The notes beneath the pieces were generated by a model. The model did not search any database. It was not told the DNA's origin and was given only the letters and a program-made list of their open reading frames with translations. 64,000 nt of DNA from a virus (taxonomy: Duplodnaviria; Caudoviricetes): IMG/VR virus record IMGVR_UViG_3300045919_000097, positions 900-64,899 of that record; one strand, written 5' to 3'. Shown piece by piece: positions 72-63,987 of the stretch (positions are counted from its first letter, which is position 1; the number at the start of each line of letters is the position of its first letter). The position numbers and the translations under genes are program-made.

Positions 72-109
72 ATTGTATCATGGCATCATAAACCTGTAAA
101 CACTTATTT
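72..109 (-). promoter_or_regulatory. sigma70-type early promoter (AAATAAGTG-TTTACA-N17-TACAAT, extended -10 TG)
   Basis: Minus strand reads TTTACA ggtttatgatgccatga TACAAT; same architecture as five other copies; points off the left end, presumably toward the ORF starting at 63987 across the circular junction. Confidence 0.85.
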
Positions 110-40450: not shown

Positions 40451-42886
40451 ATGGATCTCAAACTTGAAGACCTGTCGCCAGAAGACAGGAAGGCTCTTCC
40501 ACACAATCATCCTCTGCTTGATGAGTATGCTGAGCGCATGGCTGCCAAGTACGGTGTTGATCCTGCACTTGTGCTTGGCATCAAGAACGTTGGTGAACGC
40601 TCTGAGTCTAACTCAGTCAGTTCTAAGAAGGCTCGTGGCGTCATGCAGACAATACCAGCCACGGCCAAAGCACTTGGTATTGTGGACCAGACAGATCCTG
40701 TCCAGTCCATTGAGGGCGGCGTCAAGCTCATATCCCAGCACAGCAAGCAGCTAGGTACGAGTGACCCCGCCGTTTTGGCGGCAGCTTACCACGCTGGCCC
40801 AGGTTCCAAAGCCGTGAAGTCTGGGGATTTCAGTGGAATGCCTAAGACTGAGGCTTACTCTCAACGGGTTGCTGACTACGTCAAGGCAAACCCTAAGACT
40901 GTACCAGCCCAACCGGCAGCTGAGCCATCTGAGACACCCTCTGATAAGCCAGGGATGACTAAATTGCCTGCTGGGATTACTATAGACGACCTCAATCCAG
41001 ACGACAAGATTGCATACATGAAGTCCTTCTACAAGGCCAATCCTGGAACGAGTCCCACAAGTGGAAACAGCTTTGGTGAGAATGCACTTATAGGTGCGGG
41101 TAAGTTCTTTTCCGATACCGGCTCAGGTCTCCGCCAGGTTGCTGCAAACGTGGTAAATCCAGTGACCCATGCTTTTGGCGGCAAGGATCTGCTTCCACAA
41201 GATTATGAAGGCGAAAAAGAACGGCGCGTCCAGGACGATGCACTCATGCGTACGTGGGGTGGCAACATGGGATACATGGGTGCTGCTGCAACGTCCTTGG
41301 CTCTACCGGGTGCTGGTGTTGCTAAGGGCGTGGGATCAGTTGTGAATCCAATTGCACGGTTGCTGACAAACCCAGTTGCTCGTGCAGCAGTTGCCAAGTA
41401 TGGAACCATTGCAGGTGCTGCTGGTGCATTGTCTACGCTGACACCAACCACAAGACCAGGTGAACGTACTGAGAACGCAGCTGTCGGTGCTGCACTTGGA
41501 CCTGTTGCAGACGTTGCACTTAGTGGCGGTGCAAACCTTGCTCGGCGCGGTATCAACTGGGTTGGAGACCACGTAAACCTTGGTCCTCTGCTTCGCCCTT
41601 CGTTCAATGCCCAGGCAACACCGGAAGCAAGGCAGGCAGTTGCTCGCGCAGCCATGAACGACGTGCCAGTATATCCACAGCAGTTGGACGCGCCAGGAAC
41701 CCAGCTTTCAGCTGGCCAGACTGCAGACCAGACGTCACGGCTGACGCGTGCAATGAATGCAACCCATGGATCTGAGTCTGATAATATCCCAGGCGCGTTG
41801 AACGATACCAGAGACCGTCTTAGTGACGTCTATCAGCAGATCTTTGGCAACCGTACCATCCCGCTGAACACACCATCTGGACCTGCACCGGCCAACGGCT
41901 TGCCGCCTCCTGGAGGCACTCAGTCTCCAAGCATGCTTGCACAACGGTTGATGCAGATCAGGGCACAATACCTGCAAGCTAAGCCTATGAGCACGCCAGA
42001 CCAAGGTCTGCTGCAGGACATTGACTCTGCTCTTGCCCATATCAACAACGGTGGTACCTTGTCGGGACGCCAGTATCAGAACTACCTACGTGACTACAAT
42101 TCTTCAGCGGCACGTGCTGCTCGTAGCTCCATCCAGAACAATGTGATGACTGGGTCTGCTGACCATGAAGCATCTGCAGCTTATGGCCAAATGCGTGATG
42201 CCTTAATGGACCACGCATCTCAATATATTCCTCAGTGGCATCAAGACGCATTCAGAACAGCCAACCGCCAATGGCGCAATATGGCAACGCTCCAGAAGTT
42301 GGCACCTGCTGACATCAATGCGGACTTTAATCCTACGACTGTGGCTCGTGCACTTCAGCGTACTCCAGGAGGTACGTACGATGCAACAGATCCTACGCTC
42401 CAAGATCTTGCTCGGTTTGGCACGTCGTTCATGGGTCTTGATGCTAACCAAGGCAAAAAAGGCATTTTTGATATTTTGAAATCCGGGGCAAAGAAAGCAG
42501 CTCCATTCATTGCTACTGGTCTTGGCGAAGGTGCATTGATTGCATCGAGTACAACTCATGAAGATGACGAAAGCCCATGGGTCAAGGTACTTAAAGCTTC
42601 GCTCTTGCCAGCTGGTTACATGGCAGCAGCAGCAGCTGGCCGAGGATCCTTGAACAAGCCAGTCACCTTGAACCAACTCAATGAGCCACGTGGTGCCCTT
42701 GCCGATCTTTCGCGAATCCTTCAGCTGGCTCCTGCTGTTGAAGGTGCTACTGCTGCCCACAGCAAAATGAATGATGATGGTGAGGAACTGGATGATGATG
42801 GATACGTTAAAGGCTACAATCCAAAGGATTCTGGAGCACCACGCATAGAGGTCCACGGCATCGGCAACAGAGGAGATGGACAATGA
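40451..42886 (+). CDS. ejection protein with N-terminal lytic transglycosylase (SLT) domain
   Basis: KYGVDPALV...GE...VSSKKARGVMQTIPATA...AAYHAGPG...TEAY. Confidence 0.85.
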   Translation: MDLKLEDLSPEDRKALPHNHPLLDEYAERMAAKYGVDPALVLGIKNVGERSESNSVSSKKARGVMQTIPATAKALGIVDQTDPVQSIEGGVKLISQHSKQLGTSDPAVLAAAYHAGPGSKAVKSGDFSGMPKTEAYSQRVADYVKANPKTVPAQPAAEPSETPSDKPGMTKLPAGITIDDLNPDDKIAYMKSFYKANPGTSPTSGNSFGENALIGAGKFFSDTGSGLRQVAANVVNPVTHAFGGKDLLPQDYEGEKERRVQDDALMRTWGGNMGYMGAAATSLALPGAGVAKGVGSVVNPIARLLTNPVARAAVAKYGTIAGAAGALSTLTPTTRPGERTENAAVGAALGPVADVALSGGANLARRGINWVGDHVNLGPLLRPSFNAQATPEARQAVARAAMNDVPVYPQQLDAPGTQLSAGQTADQTSRLTRAMNATHGSESDNIPGALNDTRDRLSDVYQQIFGNRTIPLNTPSGPAPANGLPPPGGTQSPSMLAQRLMQIRAQYLQAKPMSTPDQGLLQDIDSALAHINNGGTLSGRQYQNYLRDYNSSAARAARSSIQNNVMTGSADHEASAAYGQMRDALMDHASQYIPQWHQDAFRTANRQWRNMATLQKLAPADINADFNPTTVARALQRTPGGTYDATDPTLQDLARFGTSFMGLDANQGKKGIFDILKSGAKKAAPFIATGLGEGALIASSTTHEDDESPWVKVLKASLLPAGYMAAAAAGRGSLNKPVTLNQLNEPRGALADLSRILQLAPAVEGATAAHSKMNDDGEELDDDGYVKGYNPKDSGAPRIEVHGIGNRGDGQ

Positions 42887-44022
42887 GTGGCATTGTAGAT
42901 CTGTCGCGCCTTGCTCGTGAAGGCGGAGGTGCACTGGCCGAAGCCTACTCCAATCTGGGCCGCAAATGGACACCTGAATTGCAAGCCATCCAGAAGCGTG
43001 TTGGTGAGTTCTATCAAGGCCTTACCTCGGCCAACCCTGAGTACTTTGCAACGTCTAAGGAGATCCCCAAAGGCGCTGATCCAGAGATCATGCGGTTGCT
43101 AGCCAAGAAGCATGGGTTTGATCCTGATGAGTTCAAGTATGAACAAGGATCTGTGACGCATCGTCCCACCGGTACATCCATTGGGCCCACTGGTGACACT
43201 CCATTGCTTCTTGCAAAGCAAGCACAAGAAGCCCGTGATAAAGGACAAGAGTCCTTAGCTCGTAGCATCATTGACAAGCTCAGGTTTTCAAAAGTTGCCG
43301 GGATGGGACCATCTAGTGACTTTTTGAATGCAGACTTGATCGGTGCCGATTCAGGTACTGGCATGGCGCGGAAGCTTTATCCATTCTACTCAGATTGGCT
43401 GATGGCCCATCCAGGAACCGGGCTTGAGCAACAAGGTATTACGGGGTCTAACCTTCAGAAGAAGGCCATGTATCAACTTCAGCCATTGGAAAAGTATGGT
43501 GAAGGATTCATGAACCGTAGCGAATTTTCCCCAGGCCAACTTGATTCCAATTGGGGTCAGCACAACAACGTCAGCCGGTTGACTGGTTCAGATCTGCCAA
43601 CTCAAGTTGGTGCACTGAACATGGCTATTGGCAACAACACAAATGCCAAGATCCACACTTTGCTGCAGTCTGCGCACGATGAGCTTGGTTCTCGGCTCTT
43701 AGACACTGGTGCTGATACGCCAGAGTTCAAGGCCCTGCTAGCTAAGCTAGACAGAGCCAAGAACGCTGGACTGACCACAACGTCATTTCCATCGAGCAAC
43801 AATAACTTCCAAGACCTGTCTAGTATCATCAGAGACATCTCAGGAGAGCTCAAGATTGACCAGCCAGTTGGCTACGACAGCCTACGCCGCATGGGCATAA
43901 CTAACGACGTCCTGAGGAACCCAGATATGGTTCCCCAGGATATTCCTAGTGAGCTAACAAAGGGTCTTGCTCGGGCGAGAGGTGGGCTGGTGACCCAGTC
44001 TCGTACACCTCGCGGGCAGTAG
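42883..44022 (+). CDS. hypothetical putative virion cargo protein ending in RARGGLV
   Basis: Last late gene; ATGA-coupled; AGGAG RBS. Confidence 0.65.
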   Translation: MSGIVDLSRLAREGGGALAEAYSNLGRKWTPELQAIQKRVGEFYQGLTSANPEYFATSKEIPKGADPEIMRLLAKKHGFDPDEFKYEQGSVTHRPTGTSIGPTGDTPLLLAKQAQEARDKGQESLARSIIDKLRFSKVAGMGPSSDFLNADLIGADSGTGMARKLYPFYSDWLMAHPGTGLEQQGITGSNLQKKAMYQLQPLEKYGEGFMNRSEFSPGQLDSNWGQHNNVSRLTGSDLPTQVGALNMAIGNNTNAKIHTLLQSAHDELGSRLLDTGADTPEFKALLAKLDRAKNAGLTTTSFPSSNNNFQDLSSIIRDISGELKIDQPVGYDSLRRMGITNDVLRNPDMVPQDIPSELTKGLARARGGLVTQSRTPRGQ

Positions 44023-44821
44023 ACACAGTCCCAAGATGGAGCAAAACTGTCTTGCTTCCGTTGTAACCACCGGCCAAGTTAAACACAAGAGGTGTATCAT
44101 GAGACTTGCAATGCTCAAAGACCGTGTAGTCGCGCTCCTTCCAGTCAACGTCATTCAAGTATCCGGCACCGTACGGGTCATCTTTGTGAGAGTCCGCACC
44201 GGCTTGGTAAATCACAAGATCCCAAGCTTTCTTGCTCAGAGACTCTTTGAGCCGCTCTTGCGCACGTACAAAGTCGCCCGCCGTCGACGACCGGTCCAAA
44301 GAACATTGTTCTAGCCAGTCATTCCATCCATGGTGCTCAATCAGGTCTTGAGTGCCATCACCATAGTGGCCATCACCGTCAACAATCAAGACGTTGGCCA
44401 ATGGGTTCATTGATTTGACCGCAGATGCCGCAAGTGCCAAGCCGTTGAAAGTGCAGTATCCAGCTGAGTGTGCATAGTGAGCATGGTGGAAACCAGACAA
44501 AGGCGCAAAGACTGGTTGACGGGTTTGGGCAGCTACGACTGAGGCATGCGTCAAGATTGAACAAGACATCAGTGAGTGATCGTTGGCAACTGGGCTGAAA
44601 TCCCCGTAACCATTCATGATTTCTCCGCGCATAATGCCACGCACCAGTTCACGGTTATGGATGTTGCACAAAGCTTCAAGCGTTGAGATCTCGCCTTGGA
44701 CGTCTTGTGTAACGTCAAAGATCTTGTCAACGGCCAAGTTTGCCGCCAATTGGAAAACCTTAGAACCTTTTGACAGGTTGGTTGCGCCAGTGATAGCGCG
44801 TGGTGCTTTGTAAATGATCAT
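43946..44821 (-). CDS. histone deacetylase (HDAC)/acetylpolyamine amidohydrolase family Zn-dependent deacylase
   Basis: GFHHA...GYCTFN, LIVDGDGHYGDGT, YQAGADSHKDDP, LAGGY: charge-relay His pair, Zn ligands and catalytic Tyr all present. Confidence 0.9.
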   Translation of the reverse strand: MIIYKAPRAITGATNLSKGSKVFQLAANLAVDKIFDVTQDVQGEISTLEALCNIHNRELVRGIMRGEIMNGYGDFSPVANDHSLMSCSILTHASVVAAQTRQPVFAPLSGFHHAHYAHSAGYCTFNGLALAASAVKSMNPLANVLIVDGDGHYGDGTQDLIEHHGWNDWLEQCSLDRSSTAGDFVRAQERLKESLSKKAWDLVIYQAGADSHKDDPYGAGYLNDVDWKERDYTVFEHCKSHDTPLVFNLAGGYNGSKTVLLHLGTVSTAREVYETGSPAHLSPEQDPLLAH

Positions 44822-45336
44822 AATTGTATTCCAGGAATGTTGATTGTATACCTAAGATCATGTTGATCCCAGGAACGACCGGATCCTTCCCAAAGCGTTC
44901 TGGCTTCTGAATGAGGATACTCCTCAAGGAAAACGATCCGTTGGCATGATGTATTCAGCAGCAGCTTTGTACAGGTCATGCATGGGCTTGCTGTTACGTA
45001 AGCCGTGTGAATTGAATAAACGTCACGGCACTGAAGCAATGCATTCTGTTCAGCATGGATTGCTTGGCATCCATCAAGATTAGTACCACTAGGTGCGTGC
45101 GCAGCTGGGCAAGCATGTTGATAAACCAATCGCCTTGTGTTCTGAGTTGGATGGTCTTCCATCCCAGTTGGTTCATTACAATGAGGTTGCCCAGCAGCAA
45201 CGCCGTTGTACCCAGTAGCAAGCACGTGGCCGCGCTCGTTAAGCAGGACTGCTCCTACATTACGGCGCAGACACGTGGCACGTTCAGCAGTGACCACGGC
45301 TAATGCCATGGCCCATGAGTCACGACTAGGACGCAC
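44818..45336 (-). CDS. dCMP deaminase (ComEB/Dcd-like)
   Basis: TCLRRNVGAV, TGYNG, HAEQNA, SPCMTC; GTG start chosen. Confidence 0.9.
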   Translation of the reverse strand: MRPSRDSWAMALAVVTAERATCLRRNVGAVLLNERGHVLATGYNGVAAGQPHCNEPTGMEDHPTQNTRRLVYQHACPAAHAPSGTNLDGCQAIHAEQNALLQCRDVYSIHTAYVTASPCMTCTKLLLNTSCQRIVFLEEYPHSEARTLWEGSGRSWDQHDLRYTINIPGIQL

Positions 45337-46120
45337 GTTCCCACCACCGTTCTTTATCGCCGGGCGATGTTTCACGAAGCACACGGAGGCACTCCATCAG
45401 AACATCTTCGCTCTTGAACATGACAACCGGTGGCTCAACGCTCTGTGGGAAGTACATGGCCTTGCCATACTTCTCAACAATGGCCGTAGCTTCATCCCAT
45501 TGCTCTTGATAGAGATGAGACGATGCTGCGGTCACATACAACATCCCAGGATGCAACAACGTGCCATACTGTTCGCGGATCCGAGCGCAGATCTTGTATC
45601 CAAGCATTGTGAAGTTAAACACGTCATATGGAAGACCCAGCCATGCGTCAGACGACCTCATGAATACGTGAATATTCAGTTCATTGCCTTTGCGGATGGA
45701 TGCAGTGATTGCCACGGTACAAGGTACATCCTTGGTTGCCGGCGGGTTCTCTTTCCAGATTGTCATGCAAGCTTGGCGTGTATTGACATCGTCAACTAGC
45801 TTCCTGCAAACATAGTCAATCTGGGATTCAATGCGAGGACCGTAGGCACCAAAGAACGACTCACCGTTATCGCTGAAATCAGCAATGCGCTTGTTCCAAG
45901 GTGCAATATCATCCACCTTGTTACTGCCACTGAGGATCCAGTAGGCTTCAGCGGCCATGAACCGGTAACTGAGCTTGCGTTCAGGTATGGTAAGCACTGG
46001 CCACTTCATGTTGACTACCACCCTGTGATGAGGCAGCTCCAGCGTCTGCTTTCCGCGCGGACTTACCTTGTCACCAACAGCCATGATAGCAGCCAGTGTT
46101 TTGATCCATTCAAAGTTCAT
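45326..46120 (-). CDS. thymidylate synthase homologue, dCMP-type (methyl/hydroxymethyl transferase)
   Basis: SPRG, E.YWILSG, GAYGPR, TRQA, KDVPC, MRSSDAWLGLPYD (Asp at ThyA Asn177), SSHLY. Confidence 0.85.
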   Translation of the reverse strand: MNFEWIKTLAAIMAVGDKVSPRGKQTLELPHHRVVVNMKWPVLTIPERKLSYRFMAAEAYWILSGSNKVDDIAPWNKRIADFSDNGESFFGAYGPRIESQIDYVCRKLVDDVNTRQACMTIWKENPPATKDVPCTVAITASIRKGNELNIHVFMRSSDAWLGLPYDVFNFTMLGYKICARIREQYGTLLHPGMLYVTAASSHLYQEQWDEATAIVEKYGKAMYFPQSVEPPVVMFKSEDVLMECLRVLRETSPGDKERWWERAS

Positions 46121-46536
46121 TCGTCTTCATCCTTGATACGTGGATCCGCCAGGAAAAAACCGGCGTAGTTGATGATGTCAAGAGCAGTATCGTTCAATCC
46201 TTCAAAGTTAGAGGCTGAACCATCCATTTCTTTGCGGGTAAGTGATACGAAGCGCTCAGTCTTAGTATGCAGCATCTGTGCATAGCTAATGGTCCCAAAA
46301 GGGAAATAACCAGTGCGGTCAATCGTGTGCGGATCGCTTTGCCCATGGTTGTAGTCCTCACTCTTCTTGATGCAGAGCAGAGCAGCTGTGGCCAAAGCAC
46401 CGGGATGACCTCCGCGGCGCTGGAGTTCCAGCAGTAGCAACTTAGTGCCGTAGCCTTTGAGGTCGTCAATGGCATACTGAAATGTCTCACCGATATGAGA
46501 CACGCCTTCCGGCAATGGTGGTGTCATTCCAGCCAT
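46117..46536 (-). CDS. nucleotide-modification-associated domain 1 (DUF1599-like) protein
   Basis: KKSEDY...K..R...EGLNDTALDIINYA. Confidence 0.75.
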   Translation of the reverse strand: MAGMTPPLPEGVSHIGETFQYAIDDLKGYGTKLLLLELQRRGGHPGALATAALLCIKKSEDYNHGQSDPHTIDRTGYFPFGTISYAQMLHTKTERFVSLTRKEMDGSASNFEGLNDTALDIINYAGFFLADPRIKDEDE

Positions 46537-47024
46537 TACTTTGCCGCCCCATTTTGATCATACTTACCGTAGGCATTCAGCAGAGGCTGATTGTAGAAGG
46601 CGTTGAACTCTGCCCTGTCCAAAATCGCTTCAGTCTGAGGTGGGACCCAGCCAGGAGGCTTGCACACATCAATGTCAATGCCACGGGCAGTCTTGCCAAT
46701 GACTTTGGCCATGTTGGCACGTTGGACGTCCTGCCACAGATCTTCCCAAGGAAGACCCATCTCAATGGCAGTTCCCTTGGCAACGTAGACAAGGTCAATC
46801 AGTGCATCGGCCATGAGAGCCAAGTTGTTGTTGCCCTGAGCTTCCTTGAATTCATCCAGCTCTTCCTGCATGAACCGTATGCGTTCATGGACTCGCTGAG
46901 ACGTCACCAACCGCTGAGTCGGATGATTAGAGATTGGCTGCTTGAACTTCTCGTAAAAAGCGCGGACATCTTCCATCTCGTCATAGAAGAACATCCGCTT
47001 AATGAAGGTAAGTAGTTTTCTCAT
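46536..47024 (-). CDS. MazG-like / all-alpha NTP pyrophosphohydrolase
   Basis: QEELDEF...ADALIDLVYV..G...VQRANMAK...KPPGW.PP. Confidence 0.85.
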   Translation of the reverse strand: MRKLLTFIKRMFFYDEMEDVRAFYEKFKQPISNHPTQRLVTSQRVHERIRFMQEELDEFKEAQGNNNLALMADALIDLVYVAKGTAIEMGLPWEDLWQDVQRANMAKVIGKTARGIDIDVCKPPGWVPPQTEAILDRAEFNAFYNQPLLNAYGKYDQNGAAK

Positions 47025-47779
47025 TTGCGGCAGACCCAAAGGTTGTTCCGGGCATCATCTGGGTAGAGTGGTGCAAAGAGGCAAGAGATTGCATCATTGT
47101 CGTAATATTGTTCCAGCGCCTTACGGACCTCAACAATAGCAGCTTTGGAGGCTCTGTCCGTCTCCGCCTTCCCGATATGCTTGATGTCCATGAAGGTGCC
47201 GTAACGTTTTTCGACTGTGAACCCAGCCTTCTCAGTAGCTTTCTGGAGTTCGGGGACAGTGTACTCGTGAATATGGTTCGCTGCATGGCGCACTCCATCG
47301 TAGCAAGGTGTTGACATCAGCATGATGCCGCCAGGTTTGAGAGCTGCAAAGCAAGCTTTGAGCATCTTTGCTCCGTGCTCTACCTTCATGTGCTCAATGA
47401 CCTCGAAGTGAACCACAATGTCAAAGCCACCAGCGTTTTCACCTTTGAGGAGCTCTTTGTAGCGCTCAACAAAGTTGAATTCACCGAGGAAGTTCAAGCG
47501 TCCAGCATTCGATGGCTTGAGCTTGTTCAGATCAACGCCAGTGTAATGCAAGACATGGGGAGCAGCACCTCCGGTCAGGATTTTGCTCAACGGTTTGTCC
47601 TCACCGCATCCGATTTCAAGGACGCGGTCTTTGACAGTGATGAACCGTCGAGCATAGCTCCAGCGCCAGAAGTGCGCAGAGTAATCACGACCCAGCGTTT
47701 TCCCATGCCCATTGGCGTGGAGCTGAGTCGTGTCGTAGTCGCGATCGTCGCGATTCTTTTCTTTACGGGTGGTAGCCAT
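47021..47779 (-). CDS. class I SAM-dependent methyltransferase (not a canonical DNA MTase)
   Basis: VLEIGCG, YTGVD, FEVIEHM, LKPGG...STP; no PC or DPPY motif. Confidence 0.85.
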   Translation of the reverse strand: MATTRKEKNRDDRDYDTTQLHANGHGKTLGRDYSAHFWRWSYARRFITVKDRVLEIGCGEDKPLSKILTGGAAPHVLHYTGVDLNKLKPSNAGRLNFLGEFNFVERYKELLKGENAGGFDIVVHFEVIEHMKVEHGAKMLKACFAALKPGGIMLMSTPCYDGVRHAANHIHEYTVPELQKATEKAGFTVEKRYGTFMDIKHIGKAETDRASKAAIVEVRKALEQYYDNDAISCLFAPLYPDDARNNLWVCRK

Positions 47780-47816
47780 TATTGGTGGGTCCTCAGCAGA
47801 GTTTTTCCACGCAGGC

Positions 47817-48425
47817 TTACTTGGCGTCGGGCGGATTCATGCCCTTCTTGGTCAGATCCTTACGGTACCAAGCAACGTAGCTGCGCTTGTTGTCGTCCAG
47901 GCCAAACTTGGCTTGTACTTTCTCGAAGATCTTGTTGTCGGTCAGCTTGTCATCCATGATCAATTGCTTGAACAGGGCAGCAGCAGTCTCGGCTGGGACC
48001 TTCTTCTCAGGTGCGCCGTCAGCAGATGCTTTTGCAGCAGTCTTTTTGGCGGCGGGTTTTGCTGCAGCAGACTTTGCGGCAGGCTTTTCCGTTTTAGCAG
48101 CGGACGCTTTTTTGGCAGTTGCCATTTGGATTTCCTTAGGGGTCAGTTTAACAAGGCGGCCGAGTTCTTCCAAGGCCTCCGCGGATGCCCCGACAGACAT
48201 TGCATACTGTGCATAAAGCGCAGCGCAGCGTTCCGGCGGGTAATCAGTAAGCTGTTGGTACAACTCACTGAATGCTTTACTGGGCATTGATTCAACATTG
48301 AAGCCGTTCTCAATGCTCAGCGGAATGAATTCTACAGTGCTTCCACCGCGTAGTGCTAAGCACGTGCGGCGCTGCAGATCTGCACAAACGGCAGGAAATT
48401 TGGTGACTGGAGACAGTTTTGACAT
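47817..48425 (-). CDS. Lys/Ala-rich histone-H1-like protein with C-terminal helical (AWYR) domain; probable internal start at 48125
   Basis: MATAKKASAAKTEKPAAKSAAAKPAAKKTAAK preceded by TAAGGAAATCCAA; C-terminus paralogous to 63577..63987. Confidence 0.7.
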   Translation of the reverse strand: MSKLSPVTKFPAVCADLQRRTCLALRGGSTVEFIPLSIENGFNVESMPSKAFSELYQQLTDYPPERCAALYAQYAMSVGASAEALEELGRLVKLTPKEIQMATAKKASAAKTEKPAAKSAAAKPAAKKTAAKASADGAPEKKVPAETAAALFKQLIMDDKLTDNKIFEKVQAKFGLDDNKRSYVAWYRKDLTKKGMNPPDAK

Positions 48426-48453: not shown

Positions 48454-48462
48454 ATTGTATCA
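48454..48462 (-). promoter_or_regulatory. extended -10 promoter candidate (TGaTACAAT) for the modification operon
   Basis: TG-N-TACAAT ~30 nt before ATG 48425; -35 poor. Confidence 0.5.
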
Positions 48463-51159: not shown

Positions 51160-51888
51160 TTAGTACTTGCACAAACCAGGACCACCTTTGGCTTTGCCGC
51201 TTTGTCCATAAAAGCACCAGTGACATTTGTCATTGGGCTTAGCAACAAAGGATGTGTCGGCAAACATTGGTTTCACACGTTTTTCCCAAAGCTTTTTGAG
51301 CTTAGGAATGTCAGTGCGATCGTAAACTATTTCCTCATCCGGCATAGGATAAGTCATGCCTTGGTCAAGATACACAAGCCGAGGCTTCACGTATTCAATG
51401 TATGGATGCAAAAGCAATGCGGCCAGTGCGTACAACTGGAGCTGCTCAAGATATTCCTCATGCAGTTCTGCACGCATCTTGCCAGACTTCCAGTCAGTAA
51501 CAATCATGATGTTGTTGGCTTCGACGTGGGCAGCATCTAGCTTGATACGGACCCAGCACTTGACCCAGTTATTCCACTCAGTCCTGTCCCACGTATTGGT
51601 GAATGCCCAGTTGTCTTCAACCGTGATACCAACAGCACGCTTCTTGTAGAGCAGCCGTAGCTTCTTGAACTCATCAGCAAAGAGCTTGAGTTCTGCTGGC
51701 AGCTTTGTGATAACACCTTTGAGGTACTGCTCAGCCGTTGTGTGGATGTCAGCACCACGTTGCATGGCGTCGTTCTTTGGCTCTGCAATCTTCATCAAAG
51801 CCGAGAGCTTGAACTTTAGTGGACATTGTCTCCAAAGAGAGTACCGGCTGAAGCTCCAAGAAGTAACTTTCATTTTATCGGTTGCCAT
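51160..51888 (-). CDS. Cas4-like PD-(D/E)XK exonuclease (Fe-S)
   Basis: SWSFS...CP, G..IH, KLD, DWKSG, QLQLY, CHWC...C. Confidence 0.85.
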   Translation of the reverse strand: MATDKMKVTSWSFSRYSLWRQCPLKFKLSALMKIAEPKNDAMQRGADIHTTAEQYLKGVITKLPAELKLFADEFKKLRLLYKKRAVGITVEDNWAFTNTWDRTEWNNWVKCWVRIKLDAAHVEANNIMIVTDWKSGKMRAELHEEYLEQLQLYALAALLLHPYIEYVKPRLVYLDQGMTYPMPDEEIVYDRTDIPKLKKLWEKRVKPMFADTSFVAKPNDKCHWCFYGQSGKAKGGPGLCKY

Positions 51889-53791
51889 ATAGCAGTTTGC
51901 CTTTCTTGTCGTAATCAATCAAATCTGCCCATGACTTGTCAGACCATGAACCTTCACTGAGCATTGGGACGTCAAACTCAATGCCCTCCATCGTAACTCT
52001 CAGACGCTCCATGCTGTCCTTGATTGTCTTCTTAGGAACTGATGCCGTGAGCTGGTCATGGACATTGAGCAAGAGTCTCTCACCGGGTTTTTTAACTTTG
52101 TGCCAGCGGATGATGGCTTCTTTTGTGCAGTCTGCAGCTGAACCCTGGATCAACGCGTTTGGCAGCTTGTAGCTGAATTCCATTGTGCGGCCGTTGATCA
52201 TCTTAGGCTCTTCGCAATAGTATTCACGGCCACCCCACGTCTTGATTGGGATATTGTTCTTGGCACGTTGCTTCATGTCCTTGTACATGTCCTTGAGCCC
52301 TGGATACAGCAAAAGAATTGCTTTCTTGAGTTCGCCAGCGTCTTCGACTGACATGCCATTCTTCTCAGCTAGCTTGCCCACGCCCATGCCGTAAATCAAT
52401 CCCAAGTTGGTGTTCTTGACTGGCTTACGTTCATAGAACTTGCCCATTTTTTCCAGCTCAGCTTTGGCATAGTCGTGGAAGTCAATCCATGGATTCTCGT
52501 TGTATTTGTCCATGAGCTCACCACCATCGAAGTGAGCCAAGATCCGAGGTTCTTGCTGCGAGTAATCTCGGTCAATCAAGACGTCGCCATCCGTATACGG
52601 AATGACGTAGCTTCTGCATTGAGGTAAGTCTGGAAGATCCTTGAGCGGACACTTTGGCAGCTTAGGATCCTGATGGTGCCACAGGTTGTCAAAGTCCTTA
52701 GGCATGTTCATGAACCACGTTGCAGACAAGCGCCCGGTCCGTGTTCCTATGGCCGTAGCGCCTTCTGCCGATTTTGTCTGGTTCCAGCTTGTGAAGATGT
52801 ACCCGCCTGAATTAGAGGCCATTTCCATCCATGGGCCCATGAACGTACCAACGCACGTTTTCAAGCTGGTGCGGTACTTGAGCATGGCCAGAAGCACCTT
52901 GTCAGATACTCCTACAAGCAGCGCATCCTTGTTAGTCTGGTATTTGCCAGTAGCCGTCAGTGGCATGAGTTCTTCATCGACCTTGCCGGCAGCAATCATG
53001 GCTTTCATCAACTCATCGCCAGAATTCAGGTTGATGTCTGGTGGTGCCTTGAGCGTCTTGATAATCCAAGCATCGATTTTGTGCTGCCAAGCCGTGTAGT
53101 CCAGCACATCTTTGACCAGCCTCTTGTAATCGACACGGATGCCTTCGCGCTCCATGGACAGCAAGATGAGCATGAGCTCACGCTCACGGTTGTACGCGCT
53201 ATACATTCCACGCTCAACAATGCTTTCGTACAACTTCAGGAAAAGACCCTCGGTGCGGTCAGTATCGCCTTCAGCATATTTGCCCACAATGTCAGCTGGT
53301 GCAAACGCAATGTACTTACCAAAGTAGTGCTCAGAAGCCTTAGACTTGCTGATCTTTATATCTGGTATTGGCTGGTTCTCTAGGAGCCAGTCTCTGACCT
53401 CATCCTGCTCATCTGGAGACATAGAGAGGAGCCGTTCTGCAGACGGTTTAAGACCCAACTCAGTTTGGTTTGGATCATCTAGAAAGACCAGAAACAGGGT
53501 ATCGTGGATCTGTTGCCAAGGCAGCATGGGAAGGCCCATGTGGGTTTCAGCAACGTCTATATCAAACTTCCCGTTGTGGAAGATGACGCCATCATTGCTG
53601 TCCCAGACTTCTAGCAAAGCATCTCTGGCTTCGCCCCATGAGCAGTTGTTTCCAATGACGTGGCCCCAAGCATAGTACTTGGATTTCTTGCCGGGCTTTT
53701 TGATTGATACGCCGACTGGAACCGGAGGGTACACTGGTCGAGCCAGAATCCCCATCGTTTCAAAGTCTACGGTGGGTCTGGTGCTTTTCAT
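51875..53791 (-). CDS. family A DNA polymerase with 3'-5' exonuclease
   Basis: DFET, HNGKFD, YAEGD; TGRLS; motif A DYSQQEPR; motif B RKPVKNTNLGLIYG; motif C VHDQ. Confidence 0.95.
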   Translation of the reverse strand: MKSTRPTVDFETMGILARPVYPPVPVGVSIKKPGKKSKYYAWGHVIGNNCSWGEARDALLEVWDSNDGVIFHNGKFDIDVAETHMGLPMLPWQQIHDTLFLVFLDDPNQTELGLKPSAERLLSMSPDEQDEVRDWLLENQPIPDIKISKSKASEHYFGKYIAFAPADIVGKYAEGDTDRTEGLFLKLYESIVERGMYSAYNRERELMLILLSMEREGIRVDYKRLVKDVLDYTAWQHKIDAWIIKTLKAPPDINLNSGDELMKAMIAAGKVDEELMPLTATGKYQTNKDALLVGVSDKVLLAMLKYRTSLKTCVGTFMGPWMEMASNSGGYIFTSWNQTKSAEGATAIGTRTGRLSATWFMNMPKDFDNLWHHQDPKLPKCPLKDLPDLPQCRSYVIPYTDGDVLIDRDYSQQEPRILAHFDGGELMDKYNENPWIDFHDYAKAELEKMGKFYERKPVKNTNLGLIYGMGVGKLAEKNGMSVEDAGELKKAILLLYPGLKDMYKDMKQRAKNNIPIKTWGGREYYCEEPKMINGRTMEFSYKLPNALIQGSAADCTKEAIIRWHKVKKPGERLLLNVHDQLTASVPKKTIKDSMERLRVTMEGIEFDVPMLSEGSWSDKSWADLIDYDKKGKLLYGNR

Positions 53792-58295: not shown

Positions 58296-58483
58296 GCTTG
58301 CCTCTTTGCTTTGTCTGTACCCAGCAGCGTTTTCTGGTAGGCGGGTTTACGGTGTTCAGCGCAGCAGACAAGGATGATGTCGTCGCCACGAAACCAGCTG
58401 GTCTCTATGGCAAACCGCTTTGACATCTTAGATGGGCATCCTGGATAGTCACATGGACGTGCCTGAGCTTGCTTTTTGGTCAC
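58292..58483 (-). CDS. small Cys/His Zn-binding protein
   Basis: CDYPGC...SWFRGDD...CCAEH. Confidence 0.6.
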   Translation of the reverse strand: MTKKQAQARPCDYPGCPSKMSKRFAIETSWFRGDDIILVCCAEHRKPAYQKTLLGTDKAKRQA

Positions 58484-58752
58484 TTTGGATCCTTGTTACA
58501 AGGACATTCTGCAGCGCCCAAATACTTTCCATTTGGCTGCAGTGGATTTTGATCTGAGCACCATGATTTATGCATTAAATCCTTGTTCTGGATCCTGCGG
58601 CCATCGGTCTTGTCGTAGACGCATGGGCAGGTGTACATGGCAATGTAGTTGGCCTTCTTGCCAGCTTGGCGCTGCTCAGGAATTACCTGAGAGACCGGTA
58701 TGTTGAACATCTCAGCAGCCTTCATGGCGTGAGGATCTTGATCAGAGTACAT
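58480..58752 (-). CDS. small protein: PolA fingers/O-helix-like segment + Cys-rich tail
   Basis: DPHAMKAAEMFNIPVSQVIPEQRQAGKKANYIAMY; CPC...HKSWC...CPC. Confidence 0.6.
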   Translation of the reverse strand: MYSDQDPHAMKAAEMFNIPVSQVIPEQRQAGKKANYIAMYTCPCVYDKTDGRRIQNKDLMHKSWCSDQNPLQPNGKYLGAAECPCNKDPK

Positions 58753-58921
58753 TCTGCAGTTCCAGTGTCTTGTCCATGAGATCCCGAGTTGCTTCCATCT
58801 CAGTGGCTCCGCGGCCAACAGGCGCATTTGGATTCTCGTAATCGTGATTGTTCCACACCGCAGACCAGTCAAAGTCACGGCATGGGACAGGAGGATTTTC
58901 AAAGATTGTTATGATTGTCAT
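58742..58921 (-). CDS. 59-aa hypothetical protein, probably leaderless (missing from ORF track)
   Basis: MTIITIFENPPVPCRDFDWSAVWNNHDYENPNAPVGRGATEMEATRDLMDKTLELQNVL. Confidence 0.7.
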   Translation of the reverse strand: MTIITIFENPPVPCRDFDWSAVWNNHDYENPNAPVGRGATEMEATRDLMDKTLELQNVL

Positions 58922-60009: not shown

Positions 60010-60047
60010 ATTGTATCAAGCTCCCAGGTATTTGTAAACAGATATTT
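60010..60047 (-). promoter_or_regulatory. sigma70-type early promoter
   Basis: AAATATCTG-TTTACA-N17-TACAAT with extended TG. Confidence 0.85.
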
Positions 60048-63576: not shown

Positions 63577-63987
63577 TTAGATACCGGTGTGGCCTTTGCG
63601 ACGCAGTTCGCAACGGTACCATGCTGGGTAGTGCTTCTGGTTAGCACCCAAGACAGGGTTCTTGCCGCTGGACATTTCGTCCCAGATTTGCTGGTTGGTC
63701 ATGCCAGCCAGAATCTTAGCGCGGATGATGGCCGAAGTGCCGGTCTGCTTCTTTTCCACTTTGACCGCGGCAGGCTTAGCAGCTTTGGTTTCGGTAGCAG
63801 CTGGTGCGGCTGCAGCTGGTGCGCCGTTCTTGGCAACGAACTTCTTTGCGCCTTCGATGTCGCAGTAGAAGGTACCGTCGCGGCGGACGATGAAGTCGTC
63901 ATAATCAGACTTGGTGACGCCAATTTTGCGCAGGGCAGAAGTGGCAGAATCGCGTGCAGCGTATTTGGTGGCGTTTGACATGTTCAT
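63577..63987 (-). CDS. Ala/Lys-linker protein with C-terminal AWYR helical domain (paralogue of 47817..48425)
   Basis: ATETKAAKPAAVKVEKK then SAIIRAKILAGMTNQQIW...HYPAWYRCELRRKG. Confidence 0.7.
   Translation of the reverse strand: MNMSNATKYAARDSATSALRKIGVTKSDYDDFIVRRDGTFYCDIEGAKKFVAKNGAPAAAAPAATETKAAKPAAVKVEKKQTGTSAIIRAKILAGMTNQQIWDEMSSGKNPVLGANQKHYPAWYRCELRRKGHTGI

What the first reader, a model, noticed from the sequence alone, without database searches (positions are those of the whole stretch)
43946..48425. Coupled operon: histone-like protein, SAM methyltransferase, MazG, Nmad1, dCMP-type TS, deaminase, HDAC
Seen: seven co-oriented genes, six of them overlapping end to end, behind one extended -10 element. 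Known: TS homologue + Nmad1/DUF1599 + MazG-like pyrophosphatase is the hallmark of phage non-canonical base biosynthesis clusters. Seen: no glycosyltransferase, aGPT-Pplase, 5hmdU kinase, PLP enzyme or radical-SAM gene is recognisable; a class I SAM MTase and an HDAC-fold amidohydrolase are present instead. Inference: a base-modification route with unusual chemistry (e.g. hydroxymethyl-pyrimidine then methylation and/or deacylation), or a linked nucleotide-plus-protein modification module. Common restriction palindromes (GGATCC, AAGCTT, GAATTC, GATC) are plentiful, compatible with chemically protected DNA, but this was not counted.
Basis: partly seen in the sequence, partly recalled or inferred. 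Interest (0 to 1): 0.85.

Follow-up and report, generated by a model that had tools for sequence, protein, structure and literature searches.

The report
Phage hydroxymethyl-cytosine cassette with methyltransferase, deacylase
An uncultured wetland phage carries a widespread gene set that most likely swaps the cytosine in its DNA for a hydroxymethyl-cytosine-type base, perhaps methylated further into a base nobody has described, while the deacetylase-like gene at its end looks like a separate accessory.

Summary
The seven co-oriented minus-strand genes exist as described. Five of their six junctions overlap.

**Core cassette.** Six genes (Lys/Ala-rich g1, SAM methyltransferase, MazG-type pyrophosphatase, small DUF1599-like protein, thymidylate-synthase homologue, dCMP-family deaminase) form a syntenic cassette in 70 loci. 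These include the cultured phages AXL3 and PW916.

**Predicted chemistry.**
- The TS homologue has Cys146, Asp at ThyA position 177 (dCMP substrate), Asp at 143 and Asp169 in 58 of 58 family members.
- That is the published signature of T4/MilA-type 5-hydroxymethyl-(d)CMP synthases, not of the Xp12/PaMx74 methylases.
- The genome has no DHFR, no ThyX and no recognisable dNMP kinase.

**Methyltransferase.**
- It resembles small-molecule methyltransferases.
- It occupies the slot that holds a carbamoyltransferase in phage Xp15.
- Methylation of 5hmC is therefore plausible but untested.

**DUF1599-like protein.** It matches the C-terminal part of the fused Xp12/PaMx74 hydrolase.

**HDAC.**
- It is an intact class IV-like deacylase, adjacent to the cassette in only 3 of 70 loci.
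- Its relatives sit beside 2-aminoadenine clusters (43 of 80 viral loci), thymidine-hypermodification clusters (5) and other replication genes.
- It is therefore an accessory, not a pathway step.

Earlier reports of this scan found the same cassette on other DNA.

The parts
48454..48462 (-). Extended -10-like motif TGATACAAT upstream of g1. It is followed by GAGGAA and the ATG at 48425.
   Evidence: Read. Identical copies at 60010-60018 and 72-80 carry a TTTACA -35 hexamer. The consensus scan found no full sigma-70 match here.
47817..48425 (-). g1: 202-aa protein with a Lys/Ala/Pro-rich middle. It is the first gene of the unit. Function unknown, possibly nucleic-acid binding.
   Evidence: Only sub-threshold DUF6465 and phrog_34102 matches. 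The family is present in 66 of 70 cassette loci. Its C-terminal 37 aa resemble the protein at 63577-63987 (E 9e-5). The Xp12 protein annotated 'TolA protein', in the same position, matches 48 cassette loci but not the window.
47021..47779 (-). Class I SAM-dependent methyltransferase of small-molecule type. Proposed tailoring enzyme.
   Evidence: Methyltransf_23 E 1.1e-15. Best PDB sequence hit is UbiG, E 1.6e-5. AF2 model pLDDT 86. Foldseek top hits are SpnF, RebM, AtmM, BioC, UbiG and CmoM, with TM 0.47-0.59. 67-93% identical in 19 of 21 aligned relatives and 57-62% in the other two. 1032 clusters at E<=0.001.
46536..47039 (-). MazG-like all-alpha NTP pyrophosphohydrolase (inferred dCTPase). 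Probable start is the ATG at 47024.
   Evidence: PRA-PH E 1.1e-16, phrog_671 E 6e-25. 34-40% identical to the N-terminal part of the Xp12/PaMx74 hydrolase and 36% to Xp15 gp38. ATGA junction with MT.
46117..46536 (-). g4: 139-aa all-helical DUF1599-like protein. It matches the C-terminal part of the fused Xp12/PaMx74 pyrophosphohydrolase.
   Evidence: tblastn of the Xp12 and PaMx74 hydrolases hits 46153-46365 at 45-47% identity. phrog_18404 covers both MazG and g4. DUF1599 is sub-threshold. Atlas neighbours. AF2 model pLDDT 70.
45326..46120 (-). Thymidylate-synthase homologue, predicted dCMP hydroxymethylase (5hmdCMP synthase).
   Evidence: PF00303 E 3.4e-19. Best PDB hit is the CMP 5-hydroxymethylase MilA, E 1.1e-14. 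Cys146, Asp143, Asp177 and Asp169 are present in 58 of 58 family members.
44818..45384 (-). dCMP-family deaminase. The probable start is the GTG at about 45336.
   Evidence: dCMP_cyt_deam_1 E 6.9e-20, phrog_174 E 1.2e-34. HAE and PCxxC motifs are read in the translation. 51% identical to the Xp15 deaminase. No hit to the Xp12 or PaMx74 deaminases in the window at E<=1e-3.
43946..44821 (-). Short (291 aa) class IV-like Zn-dependent deacylase of the HDAC fold. Accessory gene. Its 3' end overlaps the convergent + strand gene 42883-44022 by 77 nt.
   Evidence: Hist_deacetyl E 7e-26. Best PDB hit is 9gkv = VcHdaH, cluster 5b. H112, H113, D150, H152, D210 and Y253 are invariant in 35 homologues. The family is present in 3 of 70 cassette loci.

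Best explanation
Genes g1 to deaminase are one copy of a widespread phage cassette that replaces deoxycytidine in virion DNA with a 5-hydroxymethyl-cytosine-type base.

**Inferred steps.**
1. The MazG-type pyrophosphatase, together with its split-off DUF1599-like domain protein, hydrolyses dCTP to dCMP. This removes the canonical nucleotide and feeds the next step.
2. The TS homologue (nucleophile Cys146, Asp177 for cytosine, Asp143 admitting water) converts dCMP to 5hm-dCMP.
3. The phage encodes no recognisable dNMP kinase, so host kinases or an unidentified protein must raise it to the triphosphate. The phage family A polymerase then incorporates it.
4. The deaminase turns part of the (modified or unmodified) dC nucleotide pool into a dU/dT precursor. 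The phage has no second TS, ThyX or DHFR.
5. The SAM methyltransferase occupies the tailoring slot that holds a 5hmC carbamoyltransferase in Xp15-type cassettes. It probably methylates the new hydroxymethyl group, which would give 5-methoxymethylcytosine, at the nucleotide or DNA level.

**The seventh gene.** The HDAC is an intact class IV-like deacylase, co-translated with the cassette here. It is a separate accessory of phage replication and nucleotide-metabolism modules, and its substrate is unknown.

**Shown versus inferred.** Shown: gene identities, diagnostic residues, synteny and distribution. Inferred: every catalytic step and the product.
For: **Synteny.** The order is g1-MT-MazG-[g4 or a P-loop kinase-like protein]-TS-deaminase in 70 loci. 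Counts of 70: TS 67, deaminase 63, MazG 65 plus 4 with dUTPase_2, g1 66. The 3 loci without TS end within about 1.5 kb after MT.

**TS residues.**
- Asp143, Cys146, Asp169 and Asp177 in 58 of 58 family members.
- A passage of PMC13326640 states that N177D gives dCMP preference, that L143D/E typifies T4-like 5hmdCMP synthases and MilA, and that D169N marks 5-hydroxy-dCMP synthases.
- The proven 5mC enzymes of Xp12 and PaMx74 have Asn143, keep Trp80 and a ThyA-like C-terminal tail, and are followed by DHFR.
- The window family has Ile at position 80 in 54 of 58 members and no such tail. The genome has no DHFR.
- The best solved relative is the CMP hydroxymethylase MilA.

**Experimental hint.** DNA of the cultured cassette-bearing phage AXL3 resisted 35 of 37 restriction enzymes. 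Only the two enzymes with A/T-only sites cut (PMC7504290 passages).

**Tailoring-slot analogy.** Xp15 has carbamoyltransferase-MazG-x-TS-deaminase in the same order. A metaviromic carbamoyltransferase that co-occurs with TS, PRA-PH and deaminase domains was shown to make 5-carbamoyloxymethyl-C from 5hmC (PMC8670742 passages).

**MT linkage.** The link persists at 32% identity in the podovirus-type record MW202510, which has MT-PPase-kinase-TS-deaminase. MT lacks [DNS]PP[YFW] and PCQ/ENV motifs (read) and resembles small-molecule O/N-methyltransferases.

**Palindromes.** Restriction palindromes are not avoided.
Against: - No chemistry was measured for any member.
- The L143 criterion comes from one paper's passage and was applied through my own alignment.
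- In bioRxiv 2024.12.05.627091, five of seven deaminase-linked Asp177 TS homologues made 5mdCMP. I could not see their residue 143 because the supplements are closed.
- T4 gp42 and Xp15 TS keep Trp80, so the loss of Trp80 is not a general mark of hydroxymethylases.
- No dNMP kinase is found in this genome, whereas 41 of 70 loci carry one.
- The MT fold matches are generic (TM 0.47-0.59) and give no substrate.
- Positional analogy with a carbamoyltransferase is not evidence of shared substrate.
- The AXL3 restriction data fit 5mC, 5hmC or any derivative.
Confidence: 0.55

Rival explanations
1. An Xp12-type system. The TS homologue is a dCMP methylase, the DNA carries 5-methylcytosine in place of C, the deaminase makes dTTP from 5mdCTP, and the SAM methyltransferase does something unrelated.
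For: The same module logic (MazG-type hydrolase containing a g4-like domain, Asp177 TS, deaminase) is found in Xp12 and PaMx74, which the preprint states replace C with 5mC. Five of seven tested deaminase-linked TS homologues made 5mdCMP. The AXL3 restriction pattern is compatible.
Against: The window TS is only 29-30% identical to the Xp12 and PaMx74 TS. It has Asp rather than Asn at position 143, lacks Trp80 and the ThyA-like C-terminal tail, and the genome lacks the DHFR that follows the deaminase in both 5mC phages. The window deaminase is 51% identical to that of Xp15 and gives no hit to those of Xp12 or PaMx74. This reading leaves the strictly linked MT unexplained.
Confidence: 0.12
2. 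The DNA carries plain 5hmC. The methyltransferase acts on another target (a nucleotide other than 5hmC, RNA, a protein or a host small molecule), for instance as a counter-defence or regulatory enzyme that merely travels with the cassette.
For: Fold and sequence matches are to generic small-molecule, cap and tRNA methyltransferases. One GenBank record calls it 'capping protein'. No substrate evidence exists. TS family members occur without MT in Pelagibacter phages.
Against: MT lies next to the pyrophosphatase and TS in all loci that extend far enough: 67 of 70, with the other 3 truncated. The link survives divergence to 32% identity and a change of phage type. All 5 GenBank phage records with MT also have the TS family. 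Unprotected 5hmC is a known target of modification-dependent nucleases (recalled).
Confidence: 0.2
3. The HDAC takes part in the base pathway by removing an acyl protecting group from a modified nucleotide or base. Alternatively MT, HDAC and the Lys/Ala-rich g1 form a phage chromatin-modifying module.
For: ATGA translational coupling of HDAC to the deaminase. The catalytic residues are intact. HDAC relatives lie next to three kinds of non-canonical-base cassettes in 51 of 80 viral loci, one of which carries a GNAT acetyltransferase.
Against: The HDAC family is adjacent in 3 of 70 cassette loci. In one cassette phage it sits 11 kb away beside DUF932 (L066/L115). The three cassettes share no chemistry. 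Other relatives lie beside capsid/exonuclease or RNR/ThyX genes. g1-like proteins occur without MT and HDAC in Xp12. No acyl donor enzyme is present in the window's operon.
Confidence: 0.07

Closest known systems
T4 hydroxymethylcytosine pathway (gp56 dCTPase, gp42 dCMP hydroxymethylase, gp1 dNMP kinase, cd deaminase, glucosyltransferases)
   Same: The same logic of dCTP removal, a TS-fold dCMP hydroxymethylase with Asp143 and Asp177, a dCMP deaminase, and a tailoring enzyme for the new hydroxyl (pathway outline recalled and from passages).
   Different: T4 gp42 gives no tblastn hit in the window at E<=1e-3. The pyrophosphatase is MazG-type. This genome has no dNMP kinase. The tailoring enzyme is a SAM methyltransferase, not a glycosyltransferase.
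Xanthomonas phage Xp15-type cassette with a carbamoyltransferase (the 5-carbamoyloxymethylcytosine enzyme was characterised from a metavirome contig, PMC8670742)
   Same: The same gene order: tailoring enzyme, MazG, small protein, TS, deaminase. MazG is 36% and the deaminase 51% identical. Asp143 and Asp177 are present in the TS.
   Different: The tailoring slot holds a NodU/CmcH-like carbamoyltransferase instead of MT. The TS is only 30% identical. Xp15 gp37 does not match g4.
Xp12 / PaMx74 5-methylcytosine replacement module
   Same: A helicase-proximal position, a pyrophosphohydrolase that contains both the MazG and the g4-like parts, an Asp177 TS and a deaminase.
   Different: Their TS has Asn143, Trp80 and a ThyA-like tail, and is followed by DHFR. 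They have no MT. Their hydrolase is one fused protein.
Stenotrophomonas phage AXL3 and Pseudoxanthomonas phage PW916 (cultured)
   Same: The same cassette: MT 73% identical, TS 47%, deaminase 62%. AXL3 DNA resists enzymes whose sites contain G/C.
   Different: They carry the kinase-like gene instead of g4, have no HDAC, and AXL3 also has ThyX. Their modification is unidentified in the AXL3 paper passages I read.
VcHdaH / HDAC11 (class IV, cluster 5 classical deacylases)
   Same: The best solved sequence relative, E 2.6e-16. It has the catalytic His pair, the Asp-His-Asp zinc ligands, GGY tyrosine and an SGFHH motif like SGGYHH/GGGFHH.
   Different: It is phage-encoded, shorter (291 aa) and untested for substrate. 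It has no PHROG family. 'Phage' has 0 occurrences in the main text of the two deacylase surveys I searched.

Membership tests
5hmdCMP synthase type of the thymidylate synthase superfamily (T4 gp42 / MilA-like) | Thymidylate synthase fold with the catalytic cysteine (E. coli Cys146) | tested here: met
   PF00303 at 69.5 bits against a cut-off of 24.3. Cys in 58 of 58 family members.
5hmdCMP synthase type of the thymidylate synthase superfamily (T4 gp42 / MilA-like) | Asp at the position of E. coli Asn177 (cytosine rather than uracil substrate) | tested here: met
   Asp in 58 of 58 members. Aligned to Asp in MilA and to Asn in TS. The criterion is stated in passages.
5hmdCMP synthase type of the thymidylate synthase superfamily (T4 gp42 / MilA-like) | Acidic residue at the position of E. 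coli Leu143 (water access, giving hydroxymethyl instead of methyl) | tested here: met
   Asp in 58 of 58 members. T4 gp42 and Xp15 have Asp, Xp12 and PaMx74 have Asn, ThyA has Leu. The criterion comes from a passage of PMC13326640.
5hmdCMP synthase type of the thymidylate synthase superfamily (T4 gp42 / MilA-like) | Product is 5-hydroxymethyl-dCMP | not testable with these tools
   Needs an enzyme assay or nucleoside LC-MS.
5-hydroxy-dCMP synthases (RB69 / DLP3 type) | Asn at the position of E. coli Asp169 | tested here: not met
   Asp169 is retained in 58 of 58 members. The criterion comes from a passage.
Xp12/PaMx74-type dCMP methylase module | TS closely related to the Xp12/PaMx74 enzymes, which keep Trp80 and a ThyA-like C-terminal tail, with DHFR downstream of the deaminase | tested here: not met
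   29-30% identity. Ile at position 80 in 54 of 58 members and no such tail. No PF00186 match in the genome.
DUF1599 / Nmad1 (PF07659) | Match above Pfam's gathering score | tested here: inconclusive
   14.1 bits against 25, E 0.06. Two relatives give E 0.042 and 0.01 over the same profile region. Atlas neighbours carry DUF1599 in 20-27% of members. The fold search was uninformative, Z below 8.
MazG-like all-alpha NTP pyrophosphohydrolase (PF01503) | Match above the gathering score | tested here: met
   61.4 bits against 21.3. Specificity for dCTP was not tested.
dCMP/cytidine deaminase (PF00383) | Family match with the zinc motifs HAE and PCxxC | tested here: met
   71.3 bits against 25. HAEQNA and PCMTC are read in the translation. 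The substrate (dCMP, 5hmdC or 5mdC forms, mono- or triphosphate) was not tested.
Class I SAM-dependent methyltransferase, non-DNA type | Rossmann SAM motif I, and absence of the [DNS]PP[YFW] and PCQ/ENV DNA methyltransferase motifs | tested here: met
   Methyltransf_23 at 58.1 bits. VLEIGCGED is read and is invariant at G-C-G. No DNA-MTase motif is present in the translation (by eye).
Classical Zn-dependent deacylase, class IV-like (HDAC11 / VcHdaH) | HDAC domain with the His-His pair, Asp/His/Asp zinc ligands and the GGY tyrosine | tested here: met
   PF00850 at 91.7 bits. H112, H113, D150, H152, D210 and Y253 are invariant in 35 homologues. The class rests on the best PDB hit, 9gkv, not on a tree.
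Histone-like / nucleoid protein | Match to a known histone-like or nucleoid-protein family | tested here: not met
   No such Pfam or PHROG match. There is only a Lys/Ala-rich segment and a sub-threshold DUF6465 match.

The most novel reading that the evidence does not exclude
Phages with this cassette, including the cultured AXL3 and PW916, replace every cytosine with 5-methoxymethylcytosine. This natural DNA base is absent from the papers I could search. It would be made by a dedicated SAM O-methyltransferase acting on 5hmC or its nucleotide. In addition, the short class IV-like deacylase marks a phage enzyme family that accompanies genomes with replaced bases (2-aminoadenine, hypermodified thymine, modified cytosine) and serves a shared, still unknown need of such phages.
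Probability: 0.33. Interest if true: 0.8.

Novelty: new variant of a known kind. Interest (0 to 1): 0.62.

Why it matters
If the methyltransferase tailors 5hmC, this abundant cassette encodes an undescribed natural DNA base. The methyltransferase family counts 1032 protein clusters at 90% identity, on contigs no longer than phage size among the best 120 listed.

The prediction can be tested at once, because cultured relatives exist (AXL3, PW916) and their restriction-resistant DNA has no identified modification in the AXL3 paper. Enzymes that write on, or discriminate between, cytosine derivatives have repeatedly become tools for epigenetic sequencing, as with the 5mC-selective deaminases of the preprint read.

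The side finding is that one deacylase family sits beside three chemically unrelated base-replacement cassettes. It points to an unstudied phage function.

Tried and rejected
**Nucleotide search.** Megablast of the operon against GenBank phages gave no match.

**HDAC in cultured phages.** tblastn gave only 7 weak records, none from the phage groups discussed. A single-sequence scan of viral contigs found nothing. The profile scan then succeeded.

**g4 relationships.** hhalign of g4 against the kinase-like family and against MazG showed no relation (probabilities 0.1-0.2). The kinase-like profile has no hit in the window. The fold search of the g4 model (VIA wide) gave only helical-hairpin matches with Z of 7.5 or less, which is uninformative.

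**MT substrate.** Foldseek of the MT model gave generic class I methyltransferases and no substrate clue.

**Complex prediction.** Complex prediction of MazG with g4 returned no verdict (score 0.00, controls not run). I draw nothing from it.

**Sequencing runs.** The look-up of sequencing runs listed 3 wetland metagenome runs kept as contigs, one of which may be the source. No RNA holder is listed, and there are no raw or long reads.

**Literature.**
- 'Nmad1' returned nothing relevant, and DUF1599 + TS + phage returned two unrelated papers.
- For methoxymethyl with phage terms, none of the 15 listed papers held 'methoxymethyl'. No paper holds methoxymethyl + deoxycytidine + bacteriophage.
- PurZ + deacetylase returned only unrelated papers among the 12 listed of 74.
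- 'Deacetylase' and 'HDAC' have 0 occurrences in the main text of two Z-genome papers. 'Phage' has 0 occurrences in two deacylase surveys.
Supplementary Figure 1E of the 5mC-deaminase preprint and the metaGPA domain tables could bear on the 5mC-versus-5hmC call and on HDAC association.

**Not done.** I built no TS tree, because identities near 30% would not resolve it. I relied on diagnostic residues instead.

Full report
**What is there**

The window is almost all of a 64.9-kb IMG/VR virus record rated complete. Structural genes lie on the plus strand up to 44022, and replication genes on the minus strand from 43946 onward.

The seven minus-strand ORFs of the finding exist. Five have Pfam matches above cut-off: Methyltransf_23, PRA-PH (MazG-like), Thymidylat_synt, dCMP_cyt_deam_1 and Hist_deacetyl.
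- The first gene, g1, has only a Lys/Ala-rich middle and sub-threshold matches. 'Histone-like' is therefore a statement about composition, not family membership.
- The fourth gene, g4, reaches DUF1599 only below threshold (14.1 bits against 25). Two relatives hit the same profile segment, and Atlas neighbours carry DUF1599 in 20-27% of members.

The junctions are ATGA, TAATG, ATGA, an 11-59 nt overlap and ATGA. A 37-nt gap follows g1.

TGATACAAT lies 29 nt upstream of the g1 ATG. The motif is not enriched on its own: 4 matches against 2.18 expected. Two identical copies elsewhere carry a TTTACA -35 hexamer.

**The cassette is widespread**

A scan with the methyltransferase found 66 viral contigs. 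GenBank adds Stenotrophomonas phage AXL3, Pseudoxanthomonas phage PW916 and two Manatee Spring genomes.

Clustering ORFs over 70 loci, the window included, gives one order: g1, MT, MazG, then either g4 (25 loci) or a P-loop kinase-like protein of about 300 aa (41 loci), then TS and deaminase.
- No locus has both g4 and the kinase-like protein. Four have neither; three of those are truncated.
- Counts of 70: TS 67, deaminase 63, MazG 65 (4 more carry a dUTPase_2 protein in that slot), g1 66, HDAC 3.
- MT is the most conserved member, 67-93% identical in 19 of 21 aligned relatives. Its family counts 1032 clusters at E<=0.001 in the large protein collection, with only automatic names.
- In the podovirus-type record MW202510 the MT has dropped to 32% identity. 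It still heads MT-PPase-kinase-TS-deaminase.

**What the TS homologue makes**

The best solved relative is the CMP 5-hydroxymethylase MilA (E 1.1e-14). True thymidylate synthases score E 5e-7 or worse.

I aligned it with E. coli ThyA, T4 gp42, the Xp12, PaMx74 and Xp15 enzymes and two dUMP-type enzymes. I then counted residues over 58 family members.

| ThyA position | Window family (of 58) |
|---|---|
| 143 | Asp, 58 |
| Cys146 | Cys, 58 |
| 169 | Asp, 58 |
| 177 | Asp, 58 |
| 80 | Ile, 54 |

Passages of PMC13326640 state three criteria:
- Asp at 177 gives dCMP preference.
- An acidic residue at 143 typifies T4-like 5hmdCMP synthases and MilA, because Leu143 is thought to exclude water.
- Asn at 169 marks 5-hydroxy-dCMP synthases.

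The preprint 10.1101/2024.12.05.627091 states that Xp12 and PaMx74 replace C by 5mC (passages). Their enzymes have Asn143, Trp80 and a ThyA-like C-terminal tail, and are followed by a DHFR gene. The window's genome has one TS homologue, no ThyX and no DHFR. I therefore read the enzyme as a dCMP hydroxymethylase.

Caveats:
- The role of the tail and of Trp80 in hydride transfer is recalled, not taken from a call.
- T4 gp42 and Xp15 keep Trp80.
- Five of seven deaminase-linked Asp177 enzymes tested in the preprint made 5mdCMP. I could not see their residue 143.

**The other cassette members**

The Xp12 and PaMx74 'hydrolase' proteins (257 and 245 aa) match both the window's MazG (34-40% identity) and g4 (45-47% over 55-71 residues). 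One PHROG family covers both as well. So g4 is the separately encoded counterpart of the C-terminal part of that pyrophosphohydrolase. It is not a kinase substitute by homology: hhalign finds no relation to the kinase-like family or to MazG.

No dNMP kinase family is detectable anywhere in the genome. Phosphorylation of the modified dCMP is unexplained in this phage.

The deaminase is 51% identical to that of Xp15. It gives no hit to those of Xp12 and PaMx74.

**The methyltransferase**

It has motif I and no DNA-methyltransferase motifs. Its best sequence match in the PDB is UbiG. A confident model (pLDDT 86) resembles small-molecule, sugar, cap and tRNA methyltransferases only generically.

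The strongest clue is position. Xanthomonas phage Xp15 has the same order, with a carbamoyltransferase where MT sits. PMC8670742 showed that a metaviromic carbamoyltransferase converts 5hmC to 5-carbamoyloxymethylcytosine. That enzyme's family co-occurs with TS, PRA-PH and deaminase domains in modified contigs (passages).

Methylation of the 5-hydroxymethyl group is thus a reasonable, untested inference. No paper in the library links methoxymethyl, deoxycytidine and bacteriophage.

AXL3 DNA resisted 35 of 37 enzymes, and only the two with A/T-only sites cut. That fits a fully modified G:C pair but does not identify the base.

The window shows no avoidance of restriction palindromes: 4-mers have observed/expected 0.95, 6-mers 0.875, and none is absent.

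**The HDAC**

The protein keeps the catalytic His pair, the zinc ligands and the GGY tyrosine. It is closest to VcHdaH, a cluster 5b enzyme grouped with HDAC11.

It has 678 relatives at E<=1e-5, many on contigs of 36-68 kb. A profile scan found 235 viral stretches, of which 80 were kept. Their contexts:

| Context of the HDAC relative | Loci (of 80) |
|---|---|
| This cassette | 3 |
| End of 5-hmdU thymidine-hypermodification clusters (HMUDK, amino acid:DNA transferase, GNAT, FAD oxidoreductase, Asn177 TS, HD hydrolase) | 5 |
| Directly after PolA, an adenylosuccinate-synthetase homologue, PF04447 and a YfbR-like HD protein | 43 |
| Cut too short upstream, but with the same downstream genes as the 43 | about 11 |
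| Other settings, of which I annotated 6 loci (gp23 capsid with 5'-3' exonuclease; RNR with ThyX; TnsA-like; DUF932 twice; one with no match) | about 18 |

The domain set of the 43 loci is the one that the dZ metaGPA preprint describes for the 2-aminoadenine pathway.

One cassette phage has its HDAC 11 kb from the cassette (L066/L115). The gene is therefore an accessory of phage replication and nucleotide modules, not a step of the cytosine pathway.

Its recurrent place beside three unrelated base-replacement cassettes may reflect a shared backbone, since helicase, DUF932 and PolA recur. It may instead reflect a common need. I cannot tell which.

Neither Z-genome paper I searched mentions a deacetylase in its main text.

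**Relation to earlier notes of this scan**

After I had formed the reading above, look-ups showed four earlier reports of the same cassette on other DNA, with the same reading: 5hmC plus a linked methyltransferase, with the deacetylase separate. These are unchecked AI notes, not independent evidence. Another note on this window proposed a g1 paralogue. I confirmed a 37-residue C-terminal similarity.

**Verdict**

This is a real and coherent operon. Its core is a new variant of a known kind: T4/Xp15-like cytosine replacement with a new tailoring enzyme class. The product is predicted, not shown.

Noticed in passing
L081-L150 (43 of 80 viral loci), HDAC homologue at about 9001-9700 of each locus: Relatives of the window's HDAC lie directly after PolA, an adenylosuccinate-synthetase homologue (PurZ-like), PF04447 (MazZ-like) and a YfbR-like HD protein (DatZ-like). 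That is the 2-aminoadenine gene set. A conserved 418-aa unknown protein, DUF6378 and DUF932 follow the HDAC. Neither Z-genome paper I searched mentions a deacetylase in its main text.
   Followed up: partly
L075-L079, HDAC homologue at about 9001: The HDAC homologue ends 5-hmdU thymidine-hypermodification clusters. L077 has an amino acid:DNA transferase, GNAT, FAD oxidoreductase, 5-hmdU DNA kinase, an Asn177 TS homologue and an HD hydrolase. L078 has a TET-associated glycosyltransferase and a nucleotidyl transferase.
   Followed up: partly
window 46117-46536 versus loci L002, L011, L013 and others: g4 (25 loci) and a P-loop kinase-like protein of about 300 aa (41 loci) occupy the same slot between MazG and TS and never co-occur in 70 loci. 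The window's genome has no recognisable dNMP kinase at all.
   Followed up: partly
L068:9267-10376 and L070:9012-10367: Two cassette variants carry a C-5 cytosine DNA methylase (PF00145, E 1.4e-19 for the L068 protein; the L070 protein is grouped with it by BLAST clustering only) inserted between MT and MazG.
   Followed up: no
L012:8744-9250: A NUMOD4/HNH_3/AP2 homing-endonuclease-like gene is inserted between MT and a dUTPase_2-type pyrophosphatase, which replaces MazG in 4 loci.
   Followed up: no
window 60010-60018 (-) and 72-80 (-): Two further exact TGATACAAT copies are each preceded at 17 nt by TTTACA. They are likely sigma-70-type promoters of the minus-strand replication genes.
   Followed up: partly
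window 63577-63987 (-): A 136-aa protein shares a 37-residue C-terminal motif with g1 (E 9e-5).
   Followed up: partly
window 58480-58902 (-): A 140-aa ORF has a short match to DNA polymerase family A (E 2.4e-5, profile positions 182-220). It is apart from the 638-aa PolA at 51875-53791.
   Followed up: no
window 43946-44022: The 3' ends of the HDAC gene (-) and of the last plus-strand gene (42883-44022, 379 aa, no family) overlap convergently by 77 nt.
   Followed up: no
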